DNA of 64,000 bases, taken from assembly GCF_057098645.1 (NCBI RefSeq), contig NZ_CM169472.1, one strand, 5' to 3'. Of the stretch, positions 13,436 through 25,836 are shown piece after piece (position 1 is the first letter of the stretch; every line of letters begins with the position of its first letter). The notes beneath the pieces were generated by a model. That model saw only the letters and a list, made by a program, of their open reading frames with translations, did no database searches and was not told the DNA's origin. Both the position numbers and the translations under genes were made by a program.

Positions 13436-14191
13436 TTCACCGAGTCCTAATCATTCTTGTAACATCCTACACTTTTGTGCTTATTGCCTACAGTGAACCA
13501 CCAGAATAATTAAAGACATCAGTGTTCAGATGACGGATATCTCATTAGTAGTGATATAACGTAAGTTTTTGTTCCACTACACATCACCCCCTTCACAGCT
13601 GATCAATATTGATCACGCTCCAATATGCTGGCGAGAAAAGGACTTACCTGAAGGGTAATATCCCGCAGATAAAGTCCCCGAATAATGAGATTACGTGCGA
13701 TCCTGGCAAGATGAAAATGATAACCAATAGCACGATAATAACGATAGGCCAGAAAACCCATTGACCAAAAATGAATATCGATGTTTTTTGCTTTTTCTTA
13801 TTAGTAATGCAAAAATGGCGCATATTGTTTTTGTTATGCAGATACATCAAGCGAAAATCCCATAACTAATTAGGATTATTACAAAAAATCTTCACCAAAT
13901 TTTTTAACCGCTGTTTGTTGTAATATTTTTGCCATATTCATAGTAACGAATTGGAATAAGTAACGACAACTTAGGGAATAACTCGATCTAAACTCACCTT
14001 TGTAAGGGGGATGTTAAATATATATTAATTCCTGTGTTTCTGATTTTGCCCGGTAATAGAGAATTATTCTCATAGCAGCTCATCATGATTGCACCATACA
14101 AATATCATGATGATAAGAGGATATTATTCATTGACTTAAACAAAATGACAAAATCCATAGACCCATAGCCTGGGTACTATATAGGAGTGGT

Positions 14192-17077
14192 ATGGGCATC
14201 AAACAACACAATGGGAATACCAAAGCCGATCGTCTCGCTGAATTAAAAATCCGTTCGCCCTCAATTCAACTGATAAAATTTGGCGCTATTGGTTTGAATG
14301 CAATTATCTTTTCCCCCCTGCTGATAGCTGCTGATACAGGAAGTCAATATGGCACCAATATTACTATTAATGATGGTGACAGAATTACAGGAGATACCGC
14401 CGATCCATCAGGAAACCTCTATGGTGTAATGACCCCAGCAGGAAACACGCCTGGCAATATCAACTTGGGTAATGATGTCACCGTCAATGTCAACGACGCC
14501 TCTGGATATGCAAAAGGAATCATTATTCAGGGCAAAAACAGCTCCCTGACAGCTAACCGACTCACAGTAGATGTTGTTGGCCAAACCTCTGCCATCGGCA
14601 TTAATTTAATTGGTGACTATACCCATGCTGACTTAGGCACAGGCAGCACCATTAAGAGTAACGATGACGGCATCATTATTGGGCATAGCTCAACACTAAC
14701 AGCCACTCAATTCACCATTGAAAACTCGAACGGTATAGGCCTAACCATCAATGACTATGGCACCAGTGTCGATCTTGGAAGCGGAAGTAAAATCAAGACC
14801 GATGGAAGTACAGGTGTTTATATCGGTGGTCTCAACGGCAATAACGCCAATGGTGCTGCGCGTTTTACGGCGACAGACCTGACAATCGATGTTCAGGGAT
14901 ACAGCGCCATGGGGATAAACGTACAGAAAAACTCTGTTGTCGATCTCGGAACAAACAGTACCATTAAAACCAATGGCGATAATGCTCACGGCCTCTGGAG
15001 CTTTGGCCAGGTTAGCGCGAATGCACTCACTGTTGATGTAACTGGAGCCGCGGCCAATGGCGTCGAAGTTCGTGGTGGTACAACCACTATCGGTGCAGAT
15101 AGCCATATTTCTTCCGCGCAGGGCGGTAGTCTCGTAGCCAGTGGTTCAGACGCGACAATCAATTTTTCTGGCACGGCAGCGCAACGAAACAGCATCTTTT
15201 CCGGCGGTTCTTATGGTGCCTCGGCCCAGACGGCAACGGCTGTTATCAACATGCAAAATACCGATATTACGGTTGATCGTAATGGCAGTCTGGCGCTGGG
15301 TTTGTGGGCGCTCAGCGGCGGTAGAATAACCGGAGACAGTTTGGCTATCACCGGCGCGGCAGGAGCCAGGGGGATTTATGCCATGACCAACAGCCAGATC
15401 GACCTCACGAGCGATCTGGTCATTGATATGAGTACACCCGACCAGATGGCCATCGCAACGCAACATGACGATGGTTATGCCGCCAGCCGCATCAACGCCT
15501 CGGGTCGTATGCTTATCAACGGTAGCGTTCTTTCCAAAGGTGGGCTAATCAATCTGGATATGCACTCTGGGTCGGTTTGGACAGGTTCCTCCCTCAGCGA
15601 TAATGTCAATGGCGGGAAACTGGACGTTGCAATGAATAACAGCGTCTGGAACGTAACAAGTAATTCTAATCTCGACACGCTGGCGCTGAGCCATTCAACT
15701 GTCGATTTTGCCAGCCACGCATCAACTGCCGGCACATTTACCACATTAAACGTAGAGAACCTGAGCGGTAACAGTACCTTTATTATGCGTGCTGATGTTG
15801 TTGGCGAGGGTAATGGCGTTAATAATAAAGGGGATTTATTGAATATCAGCGGGAGTAGTGCTGGTAATCACGTATTGGCTATCCGCAACCAGGGCAGCGA
15901 GGCCACAACGGGAAATGAAGTTCTGACAGTGGTAAAAACCACTGACGGTGCGGCCTCGTTCAGCGCGTCTTCTCAGGTTGAGTTGGGGGGATATCTGTAC
16001 GATGTGCGTAAAAATGGCACTAACTGGGAGCTTTACGCTTCCGGGACAGTTCCGGAACCGACTCCTAATCCTGAACCAACACCGGCTCCCGCTCAGCCTC
16101 CCATAGTCAACCCCGATCCTACGCCTGAACCCGATCCTACGCCTAACCCCACTCCCACACCTAAACCCACCACGACCGCAGATGCTGGCGGCAATTATCT
16201 CAATGTCGGTTACTTATTAAACTATGTTGAAAACCGTACGCTGATGCAACGAATGGGTGACCTGCGAAATCAGAGTAAAGACGGTAATATCTGGCTGCGC
16301 AGTTATGGGGGAAGCCTGGACTCCTTCTCCAGTGGCAAACTGAGCGGCTTTGACATGGGTTACAGCGGTATCCAGTTTGGTGGGGATAAACGTCTCTCTG
16401 ATGAAATGCCGTTGTATGTCGGTCTGTATATTGGCTCAACACATGCATCGCCGGACTATAGCGGAGGCGACGGTACCGCACGTTCAGACTATATGGGAAT
16501 GTACGCCAGTTACATGGCACACAGCGGTTTTTACAGCGATCTCGTTGTAAAAGCATCGCGCCAGAAAAATAGTTTCCACGTACGGGACAGTCAGAACAAC
16601 GGCGTTAACGCCAACGGCACTGCGAATGGATTGAGCATCTCCCTGGAAGCCGGGCAGAGGTTCAACCTGACCCCTACTGGTTATGGGTTCTATATAGAGC
16701 CGCAAACCCAGCTCACATACAGCCACCAGAATGAGATGGCTATGAAGGCGAGTAATGGTCTCAATATACATCTGAATCACTACGAATCGCTGCTGGGGCG
16801 TGCCAGCATGATACTAGGATATGACATCACCGCAGGTAAAAGCCAGCTGAATATCTATGTGAAGACTGGCGCTATCCACGAGTTTTCAGGGGATACAGAA
16901 TATCTGTTGAACAACTCCCGGGAGAAGTACAGTTTCAAAGGTAATGGCTGGAATAATGGCGTGGGAGTCAGTGCACAGTATAACAAACAGCACACATTCT
17001 ACCTCGAAGCGGATTACACGCAGGGTAACCTCTTTGATCAGAAGCAAGTCAACGGAGGATATCGCTTCAGCTTTTAA
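14192..17077 (+). CDS. ycgV: Autotransporter adhesin (pertactin-like passenger, Pro/Thr-rich linker, C-terminal beta-barrel)
   Basis: 961 aa; linker PEPTPNPEPTPAPAQPPIVNPDPTPEPDPTPNPTPTPKPTT; C-terminal ...GGYRFSF; preceded by an ~840-bp AT-rich region. Confidence 0.85.
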   Translation: MGIKQHNGNTKADRLAELKIRSPSIQLIKFGAIGLNAIIFSPLLIAADTGSQYGTNITINDGDRITGDTADPSGNLYGVMTPAGNTPGNINLGNDVTVNVNDASGYAKGIIIQGKNSSLTANRLTVDVVGQTSAIGINLIGDYTHADLGTGSTIKSNDDGIIIGHSSTLTATQFTIENSNGIGLTINDYGTSVDLGSGSKIKTDGSTGVYIGGLNGNNANGAARFTATDLTIDVQGYSAMGINVQKNSVVDLGTNSTIKTNGDNAHGLWSFGQVSANALTVDVTGAAANGVEVRGGTTTIGADSHISSAQGGSLVASGSDATINFSGTAAQRNSIFSGGSYGASAQTATAVINMQNTDITVDRNGSLALGLWALSGGRITGDSLAITGAAGARGIYAMTNSQIDLTSDLVIDMSTPDQMAIATQHDDGYAASRINASGRMLINGSVLSKGGLINLDMHSGSVWTGSSLSDNVNGGKLDVAMNNSVWNVTSNSNLDTLALSHSTVDFASHASTAGTFTTLNVENLSGNSTFIMRADVVGEGNGVNNKGDLLNISGSSAGNHVLAIRNQGSEATTGNEVLTVVKTTDGAASFSASSQVELGGYLYDVRKNGTNWELYASGTVPEPTPNPEPTPAPAQPPIVNPDPTPEPDPTPNPTPTPKPTTTADAGGNYLNVGYLLNYVENRTLMQRMGDLRNQSKDGNIWLRSYGGSLDSFSSGKLSGFDMGYSGIQFGGDKRLSDEMPLYVGLYIGSTHASPDYSGGDGTARSDYMGMYASYMAHSGFYSDLVVKASRQKNSFHVRDSQNNGVNANGTANGLSISLEAGQRFNLTPTGYGFYIEPQTQLTYSHQNEMAMKASNGLNIHLNHYESLLGRASMILGYDITAGKSQLNIYVKTGAIHEFSGDTEYLLNNSREKYSFKGNGWNNGVGVSAQYNKQHTFYLEADYTQGNLFDQKQVNGGYRFSF

Positions 17078-22466: not shown

Positions 22467-22786
22467 GCCACCGTTCGGATGGCATCGTTCTGATGTCATC
22501 CGGCAATTTACTCAGCACTAATGTTTTTTAACTACCTGTTATATTTTTCACCAATTTATGATGACTTTTTCTTCGCTAATCGCGAACCAAACGCCGCTGG
22601 CTGGCTAATAAACAGACGTTATTTGATCACTCTATTTCGCCGTTATTTATCCCTTTAATTCCCTTTTCTAAAATGCCTGACAGTTCGCAGAATGAGATTT
22701 CGATCATGCAGCTAGTGCGATCCTGAACTAAGGTTTTCTGATACTTGAATACCGTTTTATTCGGTTTCGCCTAAGGAGAATGATTG

Positions 22787-24484
22787 ATGAAATCCCCCGC
22801 ACCTTCTCGCCCGCAAAAAATGGCGTTAATTCCAGCCTGCATCTTTTTGTGTTTCGCTGCGCTATCGGTGCAGGCAGAAGAAACACCGGTAACGCCACAG
22901 CCGCCTGATATTTTATTAGGGCCGCTGTTTAATGATGTGCAAAACGCCAAACTTTTTCCGGACCAAAAAACCTTTGCCGATGCCGTGCCGAACAGCGATC
23001 CGCTGATGATCCTTGCTGATTATCGGATGCAGCAAAACCAGAGCGGATTTGATCTGCGCCATTTCGTTAACGTCAATTTCACCCTGCCGACAGAGGGCGA
23101 GAAATATGTTCCGCCAGAGGGACAGTCACTGCGCGAACATATTGACGGACTTTGGCCGGTATTAACGCGTTCTACCGAAAACACCGAAAAATGGGATTCT
23201 CTGTTACCGCTGCCGGAACCTTATGTCGTGCCGGGCGGACGTTTTCGCGAGGTATATTACTGGGACAGTTACTTCACCATGTTAGGACTTGCCGAAAGCG
23301 GTCACTGGGATAAAGTCGCGGATATGGTGGCCAATTTTGCTCATGAAATAGACACTTACGGTCATATTCCCAACGGCAACCGCAGTTACTATTTAAGCCG
23401 CTCGCAGCCGCCCTTCTTTGCCCTGATGGTAGAGTTACTGGCGCAGCATGAAGGCGATGCCGCGTTGAAGCAATACCTGCCGCAAATGCAAAAAGAATAT
23501 GCTTACTGGATGGACGGTGTTGAAAACCTGCAAGCCGGACAACAGGAAAAACGCGTTGTAAAACTTCAGGATGGTACCCTTCTCAACCGCTACTGGGACG
23601 ATCGCGATACGCCACGACCAGAGTCATGGGTGGAAGATATTGCCACCGCTAAAAGCAATCCGAATCGACCTGCCACTGAAATTTACCGCGACCTGCGCTC
23701 TGCCGCTGCGTCTGGCTGGGATTTCAGCTCGCGCTGGATGGACAACCCGCAGCAACTAAATACCTTACGCACCACCAGCATCGTACCGGTCGATCTGAAC
23801 AGCCTGATGTTCAAAATGGAAAAAATCCTTGCCCGCGCCAGCAAAGCTGCCGGAGATAACGCGATGGCAAACCAGTACGAAACACTGGCAAATGCCCGTC
23901 AAAAAGGGATCGAAAAATACCTGTGGAACGATCAACAAGGCTGGTATGCCGATTACGACCTGAAAAGTCATAAAGTGCGCAATCAGTTAACCGCTGCCGC
24001 CCTGTTCCCGCTGTACGTCAATGCGGCAGCGAAAGATCGCGCCAACAAAATGGCGACGGCGACGAAAACACATCTGCTGCAACCAGGCGGCCTGAACACC
24101 ACGTCGGTGAAAAGTGGGCAACAATGGGATGCGCCAAATGGCTGGGCACCGTTGCAGTGGGTCGCGACAGAAGGATTACAAAACTACGGGCAAAAAGAGG
24201 TGGCGATGGACATTAGCTGGCACTTCCTGACCAATGTTCAGCACACCTATGACCGGGAGAAAAAGCTGGTGGAAAAATATGATGTCAGCACCACCGGAAC
24301 GGGGGGCGGCGGTGGCGAATATCCATTACAGGATGGCTTTGGCTGGACCAATGGCGTGACGCTGAAAATGCTGGATTTGATCTGCCCGAAAGAGCAACCG
24401 TGTGACAATGTTCCGGCGACGCGTCCACTCAGTGAATCAACAACACAGCCGGTAAAACAAAAAGAGGCGGAACCTACGCCTTAA
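22787..24484 (+). CDS. treA: Periplasmic trehalase
   Basis: 565 aa with signal peptide; glycoside hydrolase family 37 trehalase sequence. Confidence 0.95.
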
Positions 24485-24813
24485 CTTTGCTGTATATCGA
24501 GCAATGCCATTATGTGCATAAAATTGGCATTGCTCTTTTTTCGCCACGAAATGCCCCCATTCTACGGTCTATGCCTTTATTTTCTTTTATCAGAGAAGAT
24601 TTTAATTTTATTTTATCAATTTGTTAATCATTACACCTCTATTTATATTTTTCGCCACTCCGCCATTCTCCCTGACAATTTTCTTGTGGAACAAAGTGTT
24701 ATTTAAGCAACAAGCAAATCACTCTGTCTCTTTAGACAAATTTTGACATCAAACATGATTTTTTTCGATATATATGTAAATATATAGCGATTTTAATTAT
24801 CAGGATATAACTT

Positions 24814-25836
24814 ATGTCACTAACCAGACGGAGGTTTACACAGATTCTTGCGTCGACGTTGTTGATGCATCATCTGCCTTCTTTTGCACAATCAGTCAAA
24901 TTCTGGGCCTCACTGACGCTTCCCGAAGCCCAAAACATTACACGCATCGTCAGCGCAGGTGCGCCCGCCGATTTGCTATTGCTGGCTGTCGCGCCAGAAA
25001 AAATGGTCGGTTTTTCCTCTTTTGATTTTGCCCGTCAGGCATTAATTCCATTGCCAGAGCACATTCGCCAGTTACCCAGGCTGGGACGACTCGCCGGGCG
25101 CGCCAGCACACTCTCGCTGGAAGGGCTTATGGCGTTACATCCCGATTTGGTCGTTGATTGCGGCAATACGGATGAAACCTGGATCTCCCAGGCACGGCAG
25201 GTTAGCGAACAGACACAAATACCCTGGTTATTGCTTAACGGGAAACTGGAGCAATCAGCAGAACAGTTAACAACGCTTAGCAAAACGTTAGGCGAAGAGC
25301 ATCGCGCCGCAGAACAAGCCAATCTCGCCAGCCGCTTCGTTGGTGAAGCTCAGGCATTCGCCACCTCACCCGCCGCTAACCTCCGCTTTTATGCTGCGCG
25401 CGGTCCTCGAGGGCTGGAAACGGGCTTAAAGGGTTCGTTGCATACCGAGGCGGCGGAATTATTAGGTTTGCACAACGTCGCGCAAATAGCCGATCGCCAC
25501 GGCCTGACACAGGTTTCCATGGAAAATCTCCTGCGCTGGCAGCCGGATATTATTCTGGTTCAGGAGGCCGTTACTGCAGACTTTATTCGTCGTGATCCTC
25601 TCTGGCAGGGCGTGAAAGCCGTTGCGGAACAACGCATCTTATTTTTAAGTGGCTTGCCCTTTGGCTGGCTGGATGCCCCACCGGGAATCAACCGTCTTCT
25701 GGGATTACGCAGACTTCACGCCTGGCTGGATCCCGCCATCAATCGCCAGTTTAAAAGTGACATGCAGCATTACGCCCAACTGTTCTGGCATTGTTCACTC
25801 AGTGACGCCGACTATCAAAAATTGGTGGCGAGCTAA
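24814..25836 (+). CDS. Periplasmic substrate-binding protein, class III (FecB/BtuF/FhuD-like), possible Tat-type signal (TRRRFTQ)
   Basis: 340 aa; N-terminal signal; first gene of a translationally coupled operon (TAATG overlap with next gene). Confidence 0.75.
   Translation: MSLTRRRFTQILASTLLMHHLPSFAQSVKFWASLTLPEAQNITRIVSAGAPADLLLLAVAPEKMVGFSSFDFARQALIPLPEHIRQLPRLGRLAGRASTLSLEGLMALHPDLVVDCGNTDETWISQARQVSEQTQIPWLLLNGKLEQSAEQLTTLSKTLGEEHRAAEQANLASRFVGEAQAFATSPAANLRFYAARGPRGLETGLKGSLHTEAAELLGLHNVAQIADRHGLTQVSMENLLRWQPDIILVQEAVTADFIRRDPLWQGVKAVAEQRILFLSGLPFGWLDAPPGINRLLGLRRLHAWLDPAINRQFKSDMQHYAQLFWHCSLSDADYQKLVAS

What the first reader, a model, noticed from the sequence alone, without database searches (positions are those of the whole stretch)
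24485..24813. AT-rich promoter region of the uptake operon with a weak Fur-box-like element
The 330-bp region upstream of the binding-protein gene is strongly AT-rich and contains ...tcaatttgttaatcattacac... (about 24621-24639), which matches roughly 12 of 19 positions of the Fur consensus GATAATGATAATCATTATC, mostly in the 3' half. A metal-responsive operator would be expected for a TonB-dependent system, but this match is marginal.
Basis: inference. Interest (0 to 1): 0.25.

Follow-up and report, generated by a model that had tools for sequence, protein, structure and literature searches.

The report
Molybdate (ModE) operator, not Fur box
The flagged Fur-like match is a chance resemblance, but 130 bases downstream sits a near-perfect, cross-genus-conserved binding site for the molybdate sensor ModE, so this E. 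coli uptake operon annotated as an iron transporter is most likely switched off by molybdenum, not iron.

Summary
The AT-rich treA-to-transporter intergenic region (24485-24813, 31% GC) and the 12/19 Fur match (24617-24635) are real. The match is chance: 72% of shuffles reach it, a Fur matrix gives 7.1 bits (real sites 9-18), and it is not conserved.

The real operator is TTCGATATATA-TGTAAA-TATATAGCGAT at 24764-24791, ending 22 nt before the ATG.
- It matches the published E. coli ModE consensus at 19 of 20 specified positions.
- It scores 21.3 bits on a matrix built from the K-12 modA, moaA and dmsA operators. The next best site in the window scores 12.3.
- It keeps the same position in 29 of 33 orthologous loci, from Citrobacter to Shewanella.

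The operon encodes a binding protein, a MolB-like permease, an ATPase, a methyltransferase, ModD and a TonB-dependent receptor. K-12 lacks it. Its closest studied relative is Haemophilus MolBC-A, which molybdate represses 10-fold through an "unknown factor"; I find ModE-like boxes there too.

Best reading: molybdate-bound ModE represses the operon by covering the core promoter. A conserved FNR-like site 21 nt upstream suggests anaerobic activation, which is tentative. No binding or expression was measured.

The parts
24499..24541 (+). treA intrinsic terminator: 11-bp perfect stem (GAGCAATGCCA / TGGCATTGCTC), 15-nt loop, T6 run
   Evidence: Inverted repeat I2; sequence checked; invariant arms in five E. 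coli lineages.
24617..24635 (+).
   Evidence: 7.1 bits, 72-76% of nulls reach it. Not conserved.
24743..24756 (+). TTGACATCAAACAT: a -35-like TTGACA that also forms an FNR-like site (TTGAT-N4-ATCAA, 7/10 in E. coli), centre 24749.5. Candidate class II activator site (inferred).
   Evidence: TTGA and CA columns are at least 90% conserved at a fixed distance from the ModE box in 21 Enterobacterales loci. An FNR matrix places its best hit of the upstream 200 nt at this same offset in 18 of 21 loci, at 7.5-14 bits. Yokenella TTGATACTGAACAA differs by one spacer base from the TTGATACCGAACAA motif upstream of K-12 dmsA. The E. coli sequence alone is not significant.
24764..24791 (.). ModE (molybdate-responsive) operator TTCGATATATA-TGTAAA-TATATAGCGAT; core 24-mer 24766-24789; arms TATATA at 24769-24774 and 24781-24786
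   Evidence: 19/20 to ATCGNTATATA-N6-TATATANCGAT (consensus quoted in PMC545781). Unique in the window at up to 3 mismatches, 0 of 100 shuffles. 21.3 bits on a matrix from K-12 modA, moaA and dmsA operators, next best 12.25, 0 of 2000 region nulls. Conserved in orthologous loci.
24775..24783 (+). Candidate extended -10 element TGTAAATAT inside the operator (inferred). It would put the transcript start near 24790-24791.
   Evidence: The spacer TGTAAA is at least 70-90% conserved in Enterobacterales but not in Shewanella, where TTGACA sits 7 nt further upstream. No canonical sigma-70 promoter with 16-18 nt spacing is found here.
24783..24801 (-). Second Fur-like 19-mer (reverse complement GATAATTAAAATCGCTATA, 14/19, 13.9 bits). 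It overlaps the ModE right arm and the 5' leader and is probably a by-product.
   Evidence: Region-level P about 0.04-0.06. 12-14 bits only in three of the four Escherichia sequences scored; 6.5 in E. albertii; no counterpart at this position in other genera. Equal or higher scores occur at non-Fur loci in the window.
24802..24816 (+). Shine-Dalgarno AGGA (24802-24805) and ATG (24814) of the binding-protein gene
   Evidence: Sequence; annotated start in RefSeq strain RM10425.
24814..25836 (+). Periplasmic binding protein (PF01497), with an N-terminal twin-arginine motif TRRRF
   Evidence: Best solved relatives are 4PAG and then MolA. Model pLDDT 87.8.
25836..26816 (+). FecCD-type permease, closest solved homologue MolB (HI1471)
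   Evidence: 2nq2_A at 223 bits, E 5e-65, ahead of FhuB, HmuU and BtuC. 40% identity to H. influenzae MolB.
26813..27571 (+). ABC ATPase
   Evidence: HI1470 (MolC) is among the top solved homologues.
27581..28393 (+). Class I SAM-dependent methyltransferase of unknown substrate
   Evidence: Retained in every complete orthologous operon, including those that lack modD.
28390..29244 (+). ModD (TIGR01334; quinolinate phosphoribosyltransferase fold)
   Evidence: 504 bits against a cut-off of 178.85. 47% identity to H. influenzae ModD.
29270..31240 (+). TonB-dependent receptor, interrupted in this window by an in-frame TAG at 30536-30538
   Evidence: CAG in strain RM10425. No complete E. coli genome carries the TAG.

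Best explanation
The 329-bp treA-to-binding-protein spacer has three parts: the treA terminator, an AT-rich stretch with no demonstrable site, and in its last ~70 bp the promoter and operator of a six-gene operon. The operon encodes a binding protein, a MolB-like permease, an ATPase, a methyltransferase, ModD and a TonB-dependent receptor.

The functional metal-responsive element is a ModE operator at 24764-24791. When cytoplasmic molybdate is sufficient, molybdate-bound ModE dimer binds this 24-bp inverted repeat. The repeat overlaps the -10 and start region, so RNA polymerase is excluded and the operon is repressed. Under molybdenum starvation ModE leaves and the operon is expressed.

What is shown and what is inferred:
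- Shown here: the sequence match, its statistical uniqueness, and its positional conservation across genera.
- Inferred: actual binding by ModE, and repression as the direction. The direction rests on the box position, on the K-12 modA precedent, and on the measured 10-fold molybdate repression of the homologous H. influenzae mol operon.
- More tentative (about 45%): in Enterobacterales the promoter is FNR-activated. This would involve the site at 24743-24756, centred near -41, and an extended -10 inside the operator. It would couple expression to anaerobiosis, when demand for molybdoenzymes is highest.

For: 1. The site matches the E. coli ModE consensus ATCGNTATATA-N6-TATATANCGAT (PMC545781) at 19 of 20 specified positions. 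It is the only site in 64 kb within 3 mismatches, and none occurred in 100 shuffles.
2. It has the same 24-bp architecture as the boxes I read upstream of K-12 modA (CGTTATATTGTCGCCTACATAACG), moaA (CGCTATATACATGATTACATAGCG) and dmsA (CGATGTATACAAGCCTATATAGCG). A matrix from those three scores it 21.3 bits against 12.25 for the next best site. The largest null maximum in 100 resampled 64-kb sequences was 18.25, and 0 of 2000 region nulls reached the observed score.
3. It is conserved. 29 of 33 orthologous loci carry a 15-20/20 box 45-60 nt before the ATG. They include Citrobacter, Yokenella, Raoultella (20/20), Klebsiella, Enterobacter, Symbiopectobacterium, Serratia and Shewanella, with binding-protein identity down to 49%. 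The surrounding sequence and even the neighbouring genes differ.
4. It is specific. Two further hits, both in the fragmentary Pluralibacter locus L040, were not checked against its gene layout.
5. The cargo is molybdenum-linked: ModD is TIGR01334 at 504 bits and the permease's closest solved homologue is the molybdate importer MolB.
6. H. influenzae molB is repressed 10-fold by added molybdate through an 'unknown factor' (PMC4031551). ModE-like boxes (17/20) lie 56 nt before molA and before the upstream modA-like gene.
7. modE is present in 5391 of 5426 complete E. coli genomes.
8. Fur, Zur, NikR and MntR consensus scans are at chance, and there is no riboswitch.
9. For FNR: TTGA and CA are conserved at the same offset in 18 of 21 loci, with matrix scores of 7.5-14 bits.
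Against: - There is no binding or expression measurement for this operon in any organism. I found no paper on it.
- The transcription start is unmapped. No canonical sigma-70 promoter (16-18 nt spacing) is detectable at the operon start, so 'overlaps the core promoter' rests on models.
- ModE activates some promoters (moaA, dmsA, napF; my own knowledge of the literature), so repression is not guaranteed.
- The E. coli FNR-like site is weak (7/10, 7.8 bits) and not significant on its own. Its left half could simply be a -35 hexamer.
- The binding protein is only 26% identical to MolA, so the substrate need not be free molybdate.
- In this particular window the receptor gene carries a stop codon.
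Confidence: 0.82

Rival explanations
1. One reading: the 19-mer at 24617-24635 is a weak Fur box, and the operon is iron-repressed like classical TonB-dependent siderophore systems.
For: 12/19 match to the Fur consensus. RefSeq annotates the first gene as an 'iron ABC transporter substrate-binding protein'. The element overlaps two chance-level promoter-like hexamer pairs.
Against: 72% of shuffles reach 12/19. It scores 7.1 bits, below every real site left out of training (9.2-17.9), and 76% of nulls reach it. O157:H7 carries a substitution inside it. No Fur-like site sits at a conserved position in other genera. It lies about 170 bp upstream of the likely start. The 'iron' name rests on family-level homology only: FecB at 28.7 bits against a cut-off of 320.
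Confidence: 0.03
2. Dual control in Escherichia only: a different Fur-like site at 24783-24801, overlapping the ModE right arm and the 5' leader, adds iron repression on top of ModE control.
For: 14/19 and 13.9 bits, within the range of real sites and rank 5 in the window, with region-level P about 0.04-0.06. It is kept at 12-14 bits in three of the four Escherichia sequences scored.
Against: About a third of its matches come from the ModE arm itself. The score drops to 6.5 bits in E. albertii, and no other genus has a counterpart at this position. The four higher-scoring hits in the window lie in a pseudogene, inside or beside ycgZ, and at a coding-gene junction. None is a known Fur target to my knowledge, so this score level is not discriminating.
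Confidence: 0.12
3. ModE binds the box but activates rather than represses, as it does at moaA, dmsA and napF.
For: ModE is a dual regulator (K-12 annotation). The dmsA region has an FNR-type motif and a ModE box in the same promoter region.
Against: The box ends 22 nt before the ATG and overlaps every plausible -10 or start position, which is the modA-type geometry. The homologous H. influenzae mol operon is repressed by molybdate. An uptake system induced by a surplus of its own metal would be unusual.
Confidence: 0.08
4. The TATATA-rich palindrome is not a ModE site but merely promoter -10-like AT-rich DNA, or the site of another regulator.
For: The arms are TATATA, which resembles a -10 hexamer, and the region is 31% GC.
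Against: The G/C-containing flanks (TCG...CGA) are conserved in an AT-rich context across genera. 0 of 2000 nulls drawn with the region's own composition reach the score. No stray hits occur in 786 kb. The box co-occurs with modD and MolB-like genes.
Confidence: 0.05

Closest known systems
E. coli K-12 modABC promoter/operator (ModE-molybdate repression)
   Same: The same 24-bp CGnTATAT...ATAnCG inverted repeat placed just upstream of the first gene of a molybdenum-related ABC uptake operon. The expected logic is the same: repression when molybdate is sufficient.
   Different: The site here is closer to the consensus (19/20 against 16/20 for modA). The operon is a type II (FecCD/BtuC-like) importer with a TonB-dependent receptor, a methyltransferase and ModD, not the type I ModABC. 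It is absent from K-12. It has a possible FNR input.
Haemophilus influenzae MolBC-A (HI1470-HI1472) with adjacent modD: a low-affinity molybdate/tungstate type II ABC importer
   Same: The permease is 40% identical and is the best solved homologue. ModD is 47% identical. modD is linked to the transporter genes. ModE-like boxes lie upstream. molB is experimentally repressed by molybdate.
   Different: The binding protein is only 26% identical to MolA over 232 residues; fold TM-score is 0.66-0.69, behind the uncharacterised 4PAG. The H. influenzae cluster as fetched has no TonB-dependent receptor and no methyltransferase, and has ModA-type genes instead. The substrate of the E. coli system is untested.
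FNR plus ModE co-regulated promoters of molybdoenzyme operons (dmsABC, napF, moaA)
   Same: An FNR-type motif and a ModE box lie in one promoter region. The Yokenella FNR-like site differs by one spacer base from the TTGATACCGAACAA motif upstream of dmsA, and the dmsA box shares the CGATGTATA arm variant seen in E. albertii and Yokenella.
   Different: There ModE acts positively from other positions. Here the box overlaps the core promoter. The FNR role here is only inferred.
Fur-repressed TonB-dependent siderophore operons (fepA, fhuA, cirA, fiu, fecI)
   Same: Gene content of receptor plus FecB/FecCD-type ABC importer, and the RefSeq 'iron' naming.
   Different: There is no significant or conserved Fur box. 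Real Fur sites in those promoters score 9-18 bits on the same matrix.

Membership tests
ModE operator (Mo-box) | Inverted repeat matching ATCGNTATATA-N6-TATATANCGAT with the 24-bp CG...CG architecture | tested here: met
   19/20 at 24764-24791. Same architecture as the K-12 modA, moaA and dmsA boxes.
ModE operator (Mo-box) | Scores above background on a matrix built from the K-12 modA, moaA and dmsA operator sequences | tested here: met
   21.3 bits against 12.25 for the next best. The largest null maximum per 64 kb was 18.25, and 0 of 2000 region nulls reached the score.
ModE operator (Mo-box) | Conserved in position in front of orthologous operons | tested here: met
   29 of 33 loci at -45 to -60, across genera and different genomic contexts. 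Nearly all hits in 786 kb lie in front of molybdenum-related genes.
ModE operator (Mo-box) | The regulator gene modE is present in the host | tested here: met
   modE is found in 5391 of 5426 complete E. coli genomes. It lies outside this window. Not checked for the Shewanella species.
ModE operator (Mo-box) | Molybdate-dependent binding of ModE, and a modE-dependent change of expression | not testable with these tools
   Needs EMSA or footprinting and reporter assays. The only indirect support is molybdate repression of H. influenzae molB.
Fur box | Consensus or matrix score in the range of real sites and above chance | tested here: not met
The second site at 24783-24801 is borderline at 13.9 bits, P about 0.04.
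Fur box | Conservation in orthologous promoters | tested here: not met
   Outside Escherichia the best scores are below 9 bits, with one exception, and positions are unrelated. The exception is a 12.2-bit hit at -264 in Klebsiella BIGb0407.
MolBC-A type II molybdate/tungstate importer | Permease and ATPase homologous to MolB and MolC | tested here: met
   MolB is the best solved hit at 223 bits with 40% identity. MolC is among the top ATPase hits.
MolBC-A type II molybdate/tungstate importer | Binding protein of the MolA type | tested here: inconclusive
   26% identity over 232 residues. MolA is the closest characterised fold (E 1.9e-16, TM 0.66-0.69) but is barely ahead of iron-binding proteins and behind 4PAG. 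Oxyanion-ligand residues were not compared.
MolBC-A type II molybdate/tungstate importer | Binds and transports molybdate or tungstate | not testable with these tools
   Needs ITC on the binding protein and ICP-MS uptake assays.
FNR class II promoter | TTGAT-N4-ATCAA site | tested here: inconclusive
   E. coli has 7/10 and 7.8 bits, not significant alone. Orthologues have 8-9/10 and up to 14 bits at the same offset in 18 of 21 loci.
FNR class II promoter | Site centred near -41.5 from a mapped start, and fnr-dependent anaerobic induction | not testable with these tools
   No transcript start or expression data are available.

The most novel reading that the evidence does not exclude
About 40% of E. 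coli genomes, and many other Enterobacterales and some Shewanella, carry a TonB-dependent, ModE-repressed and possibly FNR-activated pathway for acquiring molybdenum or tungsten in a form too scarce or too large for porins. Candidates are a metallophore- or host-bound complex, or a pterin-bound form. A cytoplasmic methyltransferase and ModD would process the cargo. The system has been overlooked because it is annotated as an iron transporter and is missing from K-12.
Probability: 0.3. Interest if true: 0.75.

Novelty: new member of a known kind. Interest (0 to 1): 0.5.

Why it matters
- It would re-assign a widespread accessory operon from iron to molybdenum homeostasis. The operon is in 2,148 of 5,426 complete E. 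coli genomes, including O157:H7, O145 and uropathogenic strain 536.
- It names ModE as the likely 'unknown factor' behind molybdate repression of the structurally well-studied MolBC-A importer.
- It points to outer-membrane, TonB-energised molybdenum or tungsten acquisition in enteric bacteria, which can be tested with simple reporter and uptake assays.
- It is a cautionary example. The weak motif that fitted the annotation (Fur) was noise, while a near-perfect operator for a different metal sat 130 bp away.

Tried and rejected
- **Riboswitch or RNA element:** an Rfam scan of 24300-25000 gave only one meaningless hit at E 0.82.
- **Zur, NikR and MntR:** consensus scans were at chance.
- **Canonical sigma-70 promoter at the operon start:** none with 16-18 nt spacing. 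The two hits near 24600-24650 are at chance frequency. TTGACA (24743-24748) to the left-arm TATATA needs a 20-nt spacer.
- **The 64-codon ORF at 24512-24706:** rejected as coding. E. coli lineages differ there by indels of 7, 1, 5 and 1 nt, and it starts inside the terminator hairpin.
- **Literature:**
  - Searches for the operon, ModD, EDL933 Z-numbers (guessed from memory) and a Mo-regulated TonB receptor found nothing on this system.
  - Z1966 appears once, as an uncharacterised down-regulated gene.
  - 'modD' in an extraintestinal pathogenic E. coli (ExPEC) Tat paper is probably a typo for mdoD.
  - The Shewanella regulon study lists only modE and modABC under ModE.
  - The key papers were not available: Studholme and Pau 2003 on ModE sites, and Tirado-Lee 2011 on MolA. 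I cannot exclude that the former already listed this site.
- **FNR matrix:** two of the eight training sites (frdA, nrfA) were probably mis-picked by consensus seeding, with left-out scores of 2-5 bits. That matrix is crude.

Full report
**Where we are.** The window is an E. coli O145-type chromosome segment. The finding covers the spacer between treA (periplasmic trehalase, 22784-24484) and a gene that RefSeq calls an 'iron ABC transporter substrate-binding protein' (24814-25836). Five further genes follow on the same strand, with overlapping or nearly abutting ends:
- a FecCD-type permease;
- an ABC ATPase;
- a class I SAM-dependent methyltransferase;
- ModD;
- a TonB-dependent receptor.

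K-12 lacks all of this. Its homology to the window stops exactly at the treA stop codon (24485) and resumes at 31217, with about 620 bp containing ycgY in between. The segment is present in 2,148 of 5,426 complete E. coli genomes, including O157:H7 and uropathogenic strain 536.

**Checking the observation.** The region is AT-rich: 31.3% GC against 49.6% for the window. The quoted string is at 24616-24636, and the register 24617-24635 matches the Fur consensus at 12 of 19 positions. That is not above chance.
- 164 19-mers in the window (both strands) do as well or better.
- 72% of 2000 dinucleotide-preserving shuffles of the region reach at least 12/19.

I built a Fur matrix from nine K-12 Fur-controlled promoters: fepA-fes, fepD-entS, fepB-entC, fhuA, fecI, cirA, fiu, tonB and exbB. 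Real sites score 9.2-17.9 bits when left out of training. O157:H7 has a substitution inside it. Orthologous promoters in other genera have nothing comparable at a conserved position.

**What is actually there.** The first 57 bases are the treA terminator: a perfect 11-bp stem at 24499-24535 followed by a T6 run.

The only other structured element is an inverted repeat, TCGATATATAT / ATATATAGCGA, at 24765-24790. Read as TTCGATATATA-TGTAAA-TATATAGCGAT (24764-24791), it matches the E. coli ModE consensus ATCGNTATATA-N6-TATATANCGAT, quoted in PMC545781, at 19 of 20 specified positions. It is the only site in the window within three mismatches, and none occurred in 100 shuffles.

The boxes I read from the K-12 genome upstream of modA, moaA and dmsA share the same 24-bp architecture. 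A matrix built from just those three gives the site 21.3 bits. The next best site in 64 kb scores 12.25. The largest maximum in 100 resampled 64-kb sequences was 18.25. None of 2000 nulls drawn with the region's own AT-rich composition reached the observed score. Zur, NikR, MntR and FNR consensus scans of the E. coli region alone are all at chance, and Rfam finds no riboswitch.

**Conservation.** Five E. coli lineages that differ by 3-8% in this spacer keep the box. The only changes inside the 28-mer are:
- at the consensus 'N' of the left arm;
- at the last base of the left-arm TATATA, which modA also varies;
- in the spacer;
- at the penultimate base of the 28-mer (A in O145, G elsewhere).

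I then fetched 34 loci encoding relatives of the binding protein from one genome per species. In 29 of the 33 loci with a full-length binding-protein match, a 15-20/20 box lies 45-60 nt before the start codon. These loci include:
- Citrobacter and Yokenella;
- Raoultella ornithinolytica, a perfect 20/20;
- Klebsiella and Enterobacter;
- Symbiopectobacterium and Serratia;
- four Shewanella species, with only 51% protein identity.

In three more loci the box sits at a different apparent distance. Only one locus, with a disrupted 5' end, lacks it.

The box travels with the operon. Gene order is conserved, while the upstream neighbour is treA in some genera and unrelated genes in others.

Specificity is high.
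- in front of this operon;
- in front of its receptor gene in two species;
- at K-12 modA and moaA, the positive controls at 16/20 each;
- in the Pasteurellaceae mol loci.

The only other hits are two in the fragmentary Pluralibacter locus L040, which I did not check against its gene layout.

**What the operon is.**
- ModD matches TIGR01334 at 504 bits, against a cut-off of 178.85.
- The permease's closest solved homologue is HI1471, MolB of the H. influenzae molybdate/tungstate importer MolBC-A. It scores 223 bits with 40% identity, ahead of FhuB, HmuU and BtuC.
- The ATPase has MolC among its best hits.
- ModD is 47% identical to the H. influenzae ModD encoded next to molABC.
- The binding protein is only distantly related to MolA: 26% identity over 232 residues.

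An AlphaFold model of the binding protein (pLDDT 87.8) is closest to the uncharacterised 4PAG. MolA follows (TM 0.66-0.69) and is barely ahead of iron-binding relatives. The system is therefore a relative of MolBC-A, not a demonstrated orthologue, and it adds a methyltransferase and a TonB-dependent receptor that the H. influenzae cluster lacks. The Shewanella, Erwinia and one Klebsiella version keep the methyltransferase but lack modD.

**Link to experiment.** Rice et al. 2014 (PMC4031551) showed that adding molybdate represses molB 10-fold. They concluded that an 'unknown factor' couples cytoplasmic molybdate to molABC transcription, and noted that H. influenzae has a ModE homologue. In the H. 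influenzae locus I fetched there are two 17/20 ModE-type boxes. One is 56 nt before molA and one lies before the upstream modA-like gene. Another Pasteurellaceae locus has a 16/20 box before its molA homologue. This supports two points: boxes of this type mediate molybdate repression in this transporter family, and ModE is the missing factor. modE itself is present in 5391 of 5426 complete E. coli genomes.

**Mechanism.** The operator ends 22 nt before the ATG, and the Shine-Dalgarno AGGA is at 24802-24805. Any promoter serving this gene must overlap the operator. That is the modA-type geometry, so repression by molybdate-bound ModE is the most likely outcome.

The promoter itself is unmapped. 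TTGACA at 24743-24748 is a perfect -35 hexamer, but it is 20 nt from the left-arm TATATA. The sigma-70 scan finds nothing canonical.

Alignment of 21 Enterobacterales promoters anchored on the box shows that TTGA(T/C) is at least 90% conserved at a fixed distance, and so is a CA exactly where the right half of an FNR site (TTGAT-N4-ATCAA) would put it. The bases between vary. An FNR matrix built from K-12 promoters finds its best hit of the upstream 200 nt at this same offset in 18 of 21 loci. Scores are 7.5-14 bits, against roughly 10-17 bits for good real sites. The Yokenella site TTGATACTGAACAA differs by one spacer base from the TTGATACCGAACAA motif upstream of dmsA.

If this is a class II FNR site centred at 24749.5, the start would fall near 24790-24791. 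The conserved spacer and right arm, TGTAAATAT (24775-24783), would then act as an extended -10, and ModE would cover roughly -27 to +1. In Shewanella, TTGACA lies 7 nt further upstream and the spacer is not conserved. That fits an ordinary promoter just ahead of the box.

I rate the FNR part at about 45%. The E. coli site itself is weak (7/10), and its left half could simply be a -35 hexamer.

**A second Fur-like site.** The Fur matrix does flag a different 19-mer at 24783-24801 (13.9 bits, 14/19, region-level P about 0.04-0.06). It overlaps the ModE right arm and the 5' leader. It is kept at 12-14 bits in three of the four Escherichia sequences scored, falls to 6.5 bits in E. albertii, and has no counterpart at that position in other genera. 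The four higher-scoring hits in the window are these:
- one in an autotransporter pseudogene;
- one inside ycgZ;
- one in the ycgZ-bluF spacer;
- one at the binding-protein/permease junction.

None is a known Fur target to my knowledge. I therefore give Escherichia-specific Fur co-regulation about 12%.

**Verdict.** The region's real content is a high-confidence ModE operator in front of a MolBC-like, TonB-linked operon that is annotated as iron-related. The operator is a new member of a known kind. I found no description of it in the searchable literature, but Studholme and Pau 2003, the paper most likely to have listed it, was not available. Everything about binding, direction of regulation, FNR and substrate remains inference until tested.

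Noticed in passing
window 30536-30538: The TonB-dependent receptor gene carries an in-frame TAG where strain RM10425 has CAG. A 201-bp query around it matches no complete E. coli genome at 100%: the listed best matches are 99.5%, a single mismatch, and 2,139 genomes hold the segment. The change may be a private mutation, a sequencing error or an edit, and it would truncate the receptor in this strain.
   Followed up: partly
window 24814-24900 (binding-protein N-terminus): The binding protein starts MSLTRRRFTQILAS..., a twin-arginine (Tat-type) signal motif. R5 and R6 are invariant across 16 orthologues down to 50% identity. Export in a folded state might mean a cargo or cofactor is loaded in the cytoplasm.
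   Followed up: no
L048 2877-2904 and 5903-5930 (H. influenzae mol locus); L049/L050 5920-5947: ModE-type boxes (17/20, 17/20 and 16/20) lie in front of the modA-like gene and of molA in Pasteurellaceae. They are a candidate for the 'unknown factor' site behind the published 10-fold molybdate repression of molB.
   Followed up: partly
L035 12738-12765; L034 9059-9086; L040 6586-6613: Some species carry a second ModE box inside the operon, directly before the TonB-dependent receptor gene. It is a perfect 20/20 in Shewanella fodinae and 16/20 in Serratia H1w, suggesting separately controlled receptor expression. A further 18/20 box in Pluralibacter was not placed relative to genes. The E. coli window has no such internal box.
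   Followed up: no
L030, L031, L035, L036, L037 (Shewanella, Erwinia, Klebsiella BIGb0407): These versions of the operon lack modD but keep the methyltransferase between the ATPase and the receptor. The methyltransferase, not ModD, is therefore the invariant non-transport component. Its substrate is unknown.
   Followed up: no
window 24485-31216 compared with K-12 (L054): K-12 replaces the whole 6.7-kb operon, its control region and the treA terminator with about 620 bp carrying ycgY on the other strand. The breakpoints are exactly at the treA stop codon and 24 bp before the receptor gene's stop. Because Citrobacter, Raoultella, Enterobacter and E. albertii also have the operon next to treA, K-12 looks like the derived (loss) state.
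   Followed up: partly
window 13713-13731: The best Fur-matrix hit in the window (GAAAATGATAACCAATAGC, 19.1 bits, 15/19) lies inside a frameshifted autotransporter pseudogene that is also split by an IS3 element at about 15152-16365. It could be a real relic site or a false positive.
   Followed up: no
L051 1346-1386 (K-12 dmsA upstream): The K-12 dmsA ModE box (CGATGTATACAAGCCTATATAGCG) uses the same CGATGTATA left-arm variant found in the E. albertii and Yokenella copies of the operator studied here. A TTGATTTTCAAATT motif lies just upstream of it.
   Followed up: no
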